A stretch of DNA of 64,000 nt from Centroscyllium fabricii (lineage: Eukaryota). Position 1 is the first letter of the stretch. Each line of letters begins with the position of its first letter. The stretch spans positions 2,356,001 to 2,420,000 of the forward strand of contig JBNRSN020000010.1 in NCBI GenBank assembly GCA_051313645.2. Reading direction: 5' to 3'. The translations under genes and the position numbers were made by a program. The notes beneath the pieces were generated by a model. It saw nothing but the letters and a program-made list of their open reading frames with translations, was not told the origin of the DNA and did not search any database. Shown piece after piece: positions 62,985 through 64,000 of this stretch.

Positions 62985-64000
62985 AAAGTCATGGAGTCAT
63001 AACGGCACAGAAGGAGGGCATTCGGCCCAACGAGTCCATCCTGACTCTCTGTAGAGAAATCCAGTCAGTCCCATTCCCCCGCTTTATCCCCGTTGCCCTG
63101 CAGATTTATTTCCCTCAAACGCCTATCCAGTCACCCCTTGAAAGCATTGCGTGTCTCCGCTTCCACCGCTTCTGTCGGCAGCGAGTTCCAGGTCCTCACC
63201 ACTCGCTGAGTAAAAACGTTTTTCCTCACATCCCCCCTGTATCTCTTTCCCAAAACCTTACATCTGTGTCCCCTAGTCCTTGTACCACCAACTAATGTGA
63301 ACAGCCTTTCCCAGTCTAGCCTGTCCAAACCCATCATAATCTTGTACAACTCTAACAAATCACCGCTCAACCTCCTTTGCTCTAATGAAAACAAATCAAG
63401 CTTCTCCAACCTGACCTTGGAGCAAAGATCCCCCATCCCCGGTGTGATAAACCCGTTTATCATAAGTATTGTATGTATATAGTTAATCTACATGTATTGA
63501 TGTAATCGTACCCAATACCTGTATAGTGATACGATTACTGGGACATGCCTAGGTCGGCTCCGCCCACGACTCCTCCCTCCCTGGAGGGGGTATATAAGTG
63601 GCTGCCTCCCATCCCCCAGCCATACCTGGGGACAGTCGACTAGCTGGTGTATGTCCCACCTTGTAGTGAATAAAAGCCGAATTGTTTTACCTTCTTAACT
63701 ACTCGCCCACGAGGTCGTTATTACGGTCACAATTTTATTCACTACAAGGTGGGACATACACCAGCTAGTCGACTGTCCCCAGGTATGGCCGGGGGATGGG
63801 AGGCAGCCACTTATATACCCCCTCCAGGGAGGGAGGAGTCGTGGGCGGAGCCGACCTGGGCATGTCCCAGTAATCGTATCACTATACAGGTATTGGGTAC
63901 GATTACATCAATACATGTAGATTAACTATATACATACAATACTTATGATAAACGGGTTTATCACACCCGGAACCATTCTAGTAAATCTCCTCTGCACCCT
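62985..64000 (-). mobile_element. CR1 3' fragment (runs off window), split by the palindromic element
   Basis: RLEKLDLFSLEQRRLSGDL..TRGH..FTQRVVRTWNSLP. Resumes after 63965 with GGAACCATTCTAGTAAATCTCCTCTGCACC (= VQRRFTRMVP on - strand). Confidence 0.85.
63443..63965. mobile_element. Palindromic LTR-derived element: 289-bp LTR-like unit (63443-63731) plus inverted partial copy; TG..CA ends; 5-bp TSD
   Basis: 233-bp arms 63443-63675 and 63733-63965 (2 mismatches seen), 57-bp spacer, TSD CCCGG (63438-63442 / 63966-63970), GC box ~63558, TATATAA 63591, AATAAA 63669, TGTGA..TCACA unit ends. Confidence 0.8.

What the first reader, a model, noticed from the sequence alone, without database searches (positions are those of the whole stretch)
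63443..63965. Fold-back 'hairpin LTR' inserted as a unit: LTR plus inverted U3-R, TG..CA ends, 5-bp TSD
Seen: a 523-bp insertion in a CR1 with a clean CCCGG TSD and 233-bp inverted arms (2 transition mismatches). The left arm plus spacer looks like a full LTR (TGTGA start, GC box, TATATAA, AATAAA, ending GGTCACA at 63731). Where a tRNA PBS (TGG..) should follow, one nt later TTTTATTCAC begins, complementary to the LTR's own GTGAATAAAA, and the inverted copy runs on to the U3 tip. Established: TG..CA ends with 4-6 bp TSDs mark retroviral-type DDE integrases; tRNA-independent self-priming is known in Tf1/sushi-type Gypsy elements; solo LTRs are normally not palindromic. Inference: the parent may carry a PBS complementary to its own poly(A)-signal region. 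Plus-strand strong-stop DNA (U3-R-U5-PBS) would fold back and copy U3, giving a DNA with two U3 ends that integrase inserted. This would be a route from LTR retrotransposon to a MITE/Ginger-like TIR element. It also carries two convergent TATA promoters and would give a long dsRNA hairpin if transcribed.
Basis: partly seen in the sequence, partly recalled or inferred. Interest (0 to 1): 0.8.

Follow-up and report, generated by a model that had tools for sequence, protein, structure and literature searches.

The report
Folded-back retrotransposon end, inserted whole
A 523-base piece of DNA in what appears to be a shark or ray genome looks like the end repeat of a retrotransposon joined to a mirror-image copy of most of itself, which hints at a copying accident that turns a retrotransposon end into something shaped like a DNA transposon, though its parent element could not be found here.

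Summary
63443-63965 has 233-nt inverted arms (2 transitions), a 57-nt spacer, TG..CA ends and a 5-bp duplication; removing it restores an open CR1-type frame. The first 289 nt read as a complete LTR: TATA, an initiator-like motif 31 nt on, AATAAA, and an inner TCACA end one base before the right arm. Best reading (0.55): an abortive reverse-transcription product of a Ty3/gypsy-type element, whose strong-stop DNA folded back at its own poly(A) signal and was integrated by two U3 ends. The fold-back point lies about 54 nt into the predicted transcript, so priming would not be of the Tf1 type (first 11 nt). Not shown: the parent, its primer-binding site, a second copy, or how the second strand was made. 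Ten literature searches found no description of such an element. A route to Ginger is overstated: no integrase gene is captured.

The parts
63438..63442 (.). Left copy of the 5-bp target-site duplication (CCCGG, a symmetric CCNGG word)
63443..63731 (+). LTR-like unit of 289 nt, TGTGA to TCACA (U3-R-U5, borders predicted only)
   Evidence: att-site motif comparison
63443..63675 (+). Left arm, 233 nt (predicted U3 plus R up to the end of AATAAAA)
63445..63462 (.). Short inverted repeat at the U3 tip; a second one pairs 63502-10 with 63530-38
63560..63565 (+). GC box (CCGCCC)
63591..63597 (+). TATA box; mirrored on the minus strand at 63811-63817
   Evidence: mirror follows from the arm symmetry
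63620..63626 (+). Initiator-like YYANWYY, A at 63622, 31 nt from the first T of TATA: predicted transcription start
   Evidence: only match in the 16 positions tested; consensus recalled
63669..63674 (+). Poly(A) signal AATAAA; the arm ends one base later
63676..63732 (+). 57-nt spacer (rest of R and U5 plus one base); folds as an interrupted hairpin closed by its last base, not significant on energy (z -0.96)
63727..63731 (+). Inner LTR-type end TCACA, inverse of the first 5 nt of the element
63732..63742 (+). Junction: one unpaired base, then the complement of the AATAAA region; position of a primer-binding site (inferred)
63733..63965 (-). Right arm, inverted copy of 63443-63675
63966..63970 (.). 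Right copy of the 5-bp target-site duplication
63131..63437 (-). Host CR1-type LINE, end of ORF2, downstream of the insertion
   Evidence: the name CR1 is recalled from the motif
63971..64000 (-). Host CR1-type LINE, upstream of the insertion, cut by the window end

Best explanation
An abortive cDNA of a Ty3/gypsy-type LTR retrotransposon, inserted by its integrase. Steps: (1, shown) the left 289 nt have the anatomy of one whole LTR. (2, inferred) The parent is primed not by a tRNA but by its own RNA ending at the AAUAAAA of R, paired to a complementary site one base after the 5' LTR. (3, inferred) Plus-strand strong-stop DNA copies U3-R-U5, the one spacer base, then the primer, so its 3' tail is complementary to its own R; with a primer that reaches back to the cap the tail could be up to 54 nt. 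(4, inferred; energy computed) The tail snaps back and reverse transcriptase copies on to the U3 tip. (5, inferred, weakest) A second strand is made, for instance from another strong-stop strand or a fresh polypurine primer, giving a short duplex with two U3 ends. (6, shown as footprint) Integrase joins both CA ends with a 5-bp stagger at a CCNGG site in a LINE. The product has no polypurine tract and no downstream R, so it should be a dead end as a retroelement; copies would be made anew by the parent each time. A sub-variant needs no special primer site: a free LTR end pairs with 63683-85, copies three bases and slips onto the A run.
For: Inner TCACA end one base before the right arm (0.56% of 200,000 shuffles). 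TATA, initiator-like motif at +31 and AATAAA in LTR order. Ends fit published LTR att motifs: 5' end 7/7 rGmr1, 7/8 Mag C, 6/7 Sushi; inner 3' end 6/7 rGmr1, Sushi and CsRN1 (motifs from PMC3601003 Table 3). 5-bp duplication with a restored host frame. LTR length and 5-bp duplication fit the Mag lineage rows seen in PMC3286476 (9 of 10 TSDs shown are 5 bp, LTRs 145-304 nt). No in-register complementarity beyond the arm (0 of the first 5 positions), so the arm ends sharply. A tail of 8 or more bases pairs fully in the DNA fold. The spacer folds into a stem closed at the base next to the putative primer site, the topology of one of the three duplexes of the Tf1 'pretzel' (bioRxiv 2022.12.06.519325). 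From recall only, no call: some ray and shark Gypsy elements begin their internal region with a T-rich word complementary to their own AATAAA.
Against: No parent, solo LTR or second palindrome was found: 1 copy in the 64-kb window, and no reachable collection holds animal genomes. The att motifs are short and do not separate clades; a gammaretrovirus motif fits as well (7/9 and 7/7). The Mag elements in PMC3286476 use tRNA primers. The spacer stem is not more stable than shuffles (34 of 200 fold as well). The target is symmetric (CCNGG is 0.33-0.45% of 5-mers here; 2-nt end symmetry 5-6%), which is what the chromosomal template-switch rival needs. The second-strand step has no direct support. 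None of 10 literature searches gave a precedent for integration of such a product.
Confidence: 0.55

Rival explanations
1. Made in the chromosome after an ordinary insertion. A provirus or solo LTR sat between the CCCGG copies. During replication or repair the nascent strand folded back just after the LTR end, copied R and U3 backwards, ran two bases into the left flank and returned to the original template at the LTR end plus duplication, deleting anything between.
For: The return switch has 7 nt of microhomology (5 from the LTR's own short inverted ends, 2 from the symmetric target), so the duplication would be kept intact. A target with this symmetry is 5-6% of 5-mers in the window. The first switch has either the complementary primer site or the 63680-85 / 63729-34 pairing to use.
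Against: It needs two precise switches, the second landing exactly on the LTR tip. Integrases often prefer symmetric targets (recalled), and Ginger1 prefers CCGG (PMC2836005), so symmetry alone is weak evidence.
Confidence: 0.2
2. A non-autonomous DNA transposon (MITE) of the Ginger or a related TG..CA group, moved by cut and paste, whose LTR-like motifs are incidental or very old.
For: Arms of 233 nt fall in the Ginger1 TIR range of 40-270 bp, the ends fit TGTNR, and the duplication contains CCGG, the Ginger1 target in 75% of cases; TDD-4 and TDD-5 make 5-bp duplications (PMC2836005 passages). A 4-bp CCGG parse exists.
Against: Ginger1 duplications are 4 bp; the 4-bp parse needs an asymmetric right end. 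Animal Ginger2 targets are AT-rich with TIRs of 50-180 bp. A MITE origin does not explain an inner LTR end one base before the second arm, nor TATA-initiator-AATAAA spacing. The paper lists no vertebrate Ginger transposons in the passages seen.
Confidence: 0.13
3. Two separate hairpin cDNAs were integrated together, each giving one U3 end; the loops were then opened and joined by host repair.
For: It removes the need for a second-strand step and gives a 5-bp duplication and two U3 ends (inference).
Against: Only one spacer is present and it is intact to the base, with a clean junction; repair of two loops should leave a doubled or ragged centre.
Confidence: 0.07
4. A sequencing or assembly artefact (fold-back chimera).
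For: The window has two N gaps (53679-53814, 56377-56506) and long palindromes are a known trouble spot (recalled). Reads were not available.
Against: The inversion stops exactly at the element's ends, the host frame resumes on both sides, a duplication is present, and the arms differ by two transitions, one at CpG, as decay in the germ line would give.
Confidence: 0.03

Closest known systems
Solo LTRs of animal Ty3/gypsy elements (Mag, rGmr1, Sushi, CsRN1 clades; PMC3601003)
   Same: TG..CA short inverted ends, AT-rich TATA, AATAAA with T-rich downstream stretch, short target duplication
   Different: The duplication does not follow the LTR end at 63731; an inverted U3-R copy lies between. 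Clade cannot be assigned from the motifs.
Tf1/sushi self-primed chromoviruses (PMC7175516, bioRxiv 2022.12.06.519325, PMC6317226)
   Same: Sequence just after the LTR is complementary to the LTR's own transcribed part; a U5 stem can form next to it
   Different: [quoted passage not shown] A Tf1-type fold-back would leave AATAAA in the spacer, not in the arm. No TATA-like word lies 15-50 nt upstream of 63665.
Ginger1 and Ginger2/Tdd DNA transposons (PMC2836005)
   Same: TGTNR ends, long TIRs, GC-rich target containing CCGG
   Different: 5-bp rather than 4-bp duplication, no transposase, inner LTR end. Bao et al. suggest Ginger1 TIRs may come from two LTRs in opposite orientation around an integrase and call the chain of events unclear; this element has opposed LTR ends but no integrase.
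TRIMs and PBS-less elements (biv-TRIM PMC6934838; fungal GalEa with a conserved hairpin site PMC5445492)
   Same: Short, non-coding, LTR-derived; no tRNA primer site
   Different: TRIMs have direct repeats and a polypurine tract; GalEa's hairpin lies within the internal region, and no complement in U5 was found by those authors.
DIRS-1 (inverted LTRs) and Penelope-like inverted terminal repeats
   Same: Retroelement ends in inverted orientation
   Different: DIRS uses a tyrosine recombinase (search listing) and leaves no duplication (recalled); Penelope-like ends lack TG..CA and fixed duplications (recalled).

Membership tests
Ty3/gypsy solo LTR | TG..CA short inverted ends on one LTR unit | tested here: met
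   TGTGA at 63443, TCACA at 63727-31
Ty3/gypsy solo LTR | TATA and AATAAA in U3-R-U5 order | tested here: met
   63591 and 63669; 0.11% of 100,000 shuffles
Ty3/gypsy solo LTR | Target duplication directly on both sides of the single LTR | tested here: not met
   Right copy follows 63965, not 63731
Ty3/gypsy solo LTR | Same sequence occurs as direct repeats around gag-pol | not testable with these tools
   No animal genome collection; one copy in the window
Tf1/sushi self-primed elements | Site after the 5' LTR is complementary to the first ~11 nt of the transcript | tested here: inconclusive
   Not met if the start is 63622 as predicted; no TATA-like word supports a start near 63665; the start is not measured
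Tf1/sushi self-primed elements | Three-duplex 'pretzel' RNA structure | tested here: inconclusive
   Two duplexes can form; spacer stem z -0.96; the leader needed for the third is absent
Tf1/sushi self-primed elements | Chromovirus Pol | not testable with these tools
Ginger1 | 4-bp duplication, CCGG or CCGT/ACGG | tested here: not met
   5 bp with symmetric ends; 4-bp parse needs an asymmetric end (PMC2836005)
Ginger1 | TIRs of 40-270 bp beginning TGTNR | tested here: met
   233 nt, TGTGA
Ginger1 | Integrase-like transposase in the element or in a partner with the same ends | not testable with these tools
   None in the element (15 frames of 30 aa or more listed; 2 of them searched, no real relative); partner search needs the genome
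Ginger2/Tdd | AT-rich RTATAY target, TIRs of 50-180 bp | tested here: not met
   GC-rich target, 233-nt arms; only the 5-bp length matches TDD-4/5
TRIM | Two direct repeats with primer site and polypurine tract between | tested here: not met
   Repeats are inverted; definition from PMC6934838
MITE | Short, non-coding, TIRs and duplication | tested here: met
MITE | High copy number and a transposase partner | not testable with these tools
   One copy in 64 kb
DIRS | No target duplication; tyrosine recombinase | tested here: not met
   5-bp duplication present; the DIRS rule on duplications is recalled

The most novel reading that the evidence does not exclude
The insertion is the footprint of an undescribed priming mode in a vertebrate Ty3/gypsy lineage: the primer-binding site is the complement of the element's own poly(A) signal, so one duplex both hides the 5' AAUAAA from premature polyadenylation and, after a cut at its end, supplies the primer (from the 5' R, or from the RNA's own 3' end). 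Because the primer is a long piece of LTR, strong-stop DNA is self-complementary by design, and the lineage keeps shedding palindromic, TIR-bearing, two-promoter inserts with one fixed fold-back point. That would be a direct, repeatable path from LTR ends to MITE-like elements and to hairpin RNA loci.
Probability: 0.3. Interest if true: 0.8.

Novelty: new variant of a known kind. Interest (0 to 1): 0.55.

Why it matters
How LTR ends could become the inverted ends of DNA transposons is an open question named as such in the Ginger paper (PMC2836005). This locus shows opposed LTR ends joined at a mechanistically meaningful base, and it makes a sharp, cheap prediction about the parent's primer site. 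If the prediction holds, it adds a priming mode distinct from tRNA priming and from Tf1 priming, and explains a class of palindromes that annotation tools would file as MITEs. Such inserts also bring two convergent promoters and a ready dsRNA stem, a possible source of small RNAs against the parent family. If the chromosomal rival holds, it is a one-off rearrangement of modest interest.

Tried and rejected
Other copies: BLASTN of the element against the window gave only itself and hits of 20 nt or less; the junction word with up to 3 mismatches gave 2 matches against 6.2 expected. The GTDB scan gave 54 loci against about 69 expected by chance; the longest alignment to the element among all 54 was 28 nt. 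Plasmids and phages: no match. Spurious frames used as bait for related copies: 2 of 15 frames were searched; one gave no candidate, the other gave 2 hits, a low-complexity repeat and a phage-tail-like protein, judged chance. Rfam: 3 matches, all far below gathering score, driven by the hairpin. No tRNA gene in the window. Of 92 frames of 120 aa or more, 10 were scanned with Pfam; 5 matched RVT_1 and/or ALKBH8_N and none matched an integrase, Gag or protease model. Two independent LTR insertions in opposite orientation were rejected: they would not share one duplication. A 4-bp CCGG parse was set aside because it breaks end symmetry. Literature: 10 searches gave no description of a palindromic LTR insertion or of a primer site complementary to the poly(A) signal; the library lacks most subscription papers and Repbase Reports, so absence is weak. 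Two wanted papers were not held. Supplements of PMC3601003 hold LTR alignments and had no match to the AATAAA context of this element; those of PMC6238403 and PMC8220671 were only listed; bioRxiv supplements were closed.

Full report
Setting. The window is eukaryotic repeat-rich DNA: a CATC-rich satellite to about 42 kb, several tandem arrays, LINE fragments and SINE-like repeats. The LINE and SINE words look like those of sharks and rays; that assignment is recalled and comes from no call. The window holds two N gaps, no whole genome was available, and no collection on hand holds animal genomes. Everything below rests on one copy.

The observation. The element spans 63443-63965. Its first 233 nt match the reverse complement of its last 233 nt with 2 mismatches, both transitions, one at CpG: 0.86% divergence, 95% interval 0.10-3.1%. 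It is the longest and most exact of 23 inverted pairs in the window. CCCGG stands on both sides. Of 49 boundary pairs tested, 3 gave a direct repeat and only the 5-bp one leaves symmetric ends. With the element and one copy of the repeat taken out, the flanks align without a gap to another LINE copy and read as one open frame, 51 of 92 residues identical to the RT-bearing LINE protein at 21968-23602. So this is an insertion with a true duplication, and an artefact is unlikely.

The left 289 nt look like one LTR. A GC box (63560), TATATAA (63591), an initiator-like motif with its A 31 nt after the TATA (63622), AATAAA (63669), a T-rich stretch and TCACA (63727-31), the inverse of the first five bases, follow in order. 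Post hoc shuffle rates are 0.11% for the TATA-AATAAA order and 0.56% for TCACA within 3 nt of the right arm. These are the conserved LTR features described in PMC3601003 (passages and Table 3). The ends fit several clades about equally, including a gammaretrovirus motif, so no clade can be named. Length and a 5-bp duplication fit the Mag rows seen in PMC3286476 (9 of 10 duplications shown are 5 bp), but those elements use tRNA primers.

The junction. After TCACA comes one base, then the exact complement of the LTR read backwards from the end of AATAAAA. In register there is no pairing beyond the arm in the first five positions. A primer-binding site starts 0-5 nt after the 5' LTR (search rule used in PMC6317226), so the arm begins where plus-strand synthesis would start copying the primer. 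If the primer is the element's own RNA ending at AAUAAAA, the strong-stop strand ends in the complement of its own R, and a tail of 8 bases or more pairs fully in a DNA fold. [quoted passage not shown] Here the predicted start is about 54 nt upstream of the arm end and no TATA-like word supports a later start. The spacer can fold into a stem closed by the junction base, like the duplex next to the Tf1 primer site, but 34 of 200 shuffles fold as well. From recall only, some ray and shark Gypsy elements begin their internal part with a word complementary to their AATAAA; I could not test this.

Results against this reading. First, the fold also pairs 63680-85 with 63729-34, so the junction base could have been copied from within U5 by a free LTR end, followed by a short slip; no special primer site is then needed. 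Second, the target is symmetric. An inverted copy running into the left flank shares 7 nt with an LTR end followed by the duplication, so a double template switch in the chromosome could convert an ordinary insertion into this structure and keep the duplication. Such symmetry occurs in 5-6% of 5-mers here, though integrases may prefer it. Third, a snap-back gives a hairpin with one usable end; how a second U3 end became double-stranded is not shown. Fourth, Ginger1 has TIRs of this length, TGTNR ends and a CCGG target, though with 4-bp duplications (PMC2836005).

Search for relatives. None was found in the window, GTDB (54 hits, about 69 expected, longest alignment 28 nt), plasmids or phages, protein sets baited with 2 of 15 spurious frames or Rfam. 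These collections were not expected to hold it, so this is no evidence of rarity.

Function. The element encodes nothing recognisable. It has two TATA promoters facing each other. A transcript from either would form a stem of about 54-60 bp over R with its AAUAAA paired; a 233-bp stem needs read-through from outside. Expression was not testable. Lacking a polypurine tract and a downstream R, it should not retrotranspose again; later movement by a TG..CA transposase is possible but unsupported.

What is known. Ten searches gave no report of a palindromic LTR-derived insertion with a duplication, nor of a primer site complementary to the poly(A) signal. Seen as keyword passages only: PMC4255032, PMC6317226, PMC2836005, PMC3601003 (supplements searched in 65), PMC5445492, PMC3212995, bioRxiv 2022.12.06.519325 (36), PMC6238403 (supplement list 42), PMC5210030 (44, one guppy provirus with an inverted LTR, undescribed), PMC6934838, PMC3286476, PMC7175516, PMC12789967 (66, one figure legend). 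PMC2774666 had none of the words sought (62); for PMC8220671 only the supplement list was seen. The library lacks most subscription journals and Repbase Reports, where such a family could be described.

Verdict. A real and unusual structure: an LTR plus an inverted U3-R, bounded by one duplication. It works like an aberrant LTR-retrotransposon cDNA (0.55) and fails the membership tests for solo LTR, TRIM, Ginger1, Ginger2 and DIRS. It is shaped like a MITE, but copy number is unknown. The link to Ginger origins is suggestive only, since no integrase is carried. One genome-wide search would decide most of this. Interest 0.55; the boldest reading, a new priming mode that keeps producing palindromes, has probability 0.3 and would merit 0.8.

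Noticed in passing
window 27944-28298: A second inverted pair, 119-nt arms, 93% complementary, 117-nt spacer, inside the satellite. No TG..CA ends, unrelated to the finding. Resembles the inverted ends of shark Penelope-like repeats (recalled).
   Followed up: partly
window 58003-58684: A TIR element of about 680 nt with TTAA on both sides and an interior full of ATTCGT/ACGAAT words in both orientations, CpG-rich. Probably a non-autonomous DNA transposon; superfamily not determined.
   Followed up: partly
window 1-42100: Long CATC/CATT-rich satellite with strong strand skew (GC skew about -0.5 to -0.8) and nested periods of 16, 20, 52, 77 and 146 nt; BLAST hits suggest higher-order units of about 2.5 kb.
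   Followed up: no
window 21968-23605: A 545-codon open LINE reverse-transcriptase frame inserted in the satellite; relative of the host LINE of the finding.
   Followed up: partly
window 60003-60637 and 50991-52386: Minus-strand LINE fragments matching RVT_1 and ALKBH8_N, with the same flanking 56-nt word at 50877-50932 and 59678-59733.
   Followed up: no
window 61038-61427 and 61810-62206: Two near-identical composite repeats about 775 nt apart, 88-95% alike, each a LINE tail joined to a SINE-like piece.
   Followed up: no
window 63632-63639: An 8-nt palindrome inside a small hairpin in the predicted R region; could serve as a dimerisation signal, untested.
   Followed up: no
window 48607-49211, 49276-50364, 52331-57014: Tandem arrays of 67 nt (9 copies), 49 nt (22 copies) and a CT-rich 14-mer of several kb broken by the two N gaps.
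   Followed up: no
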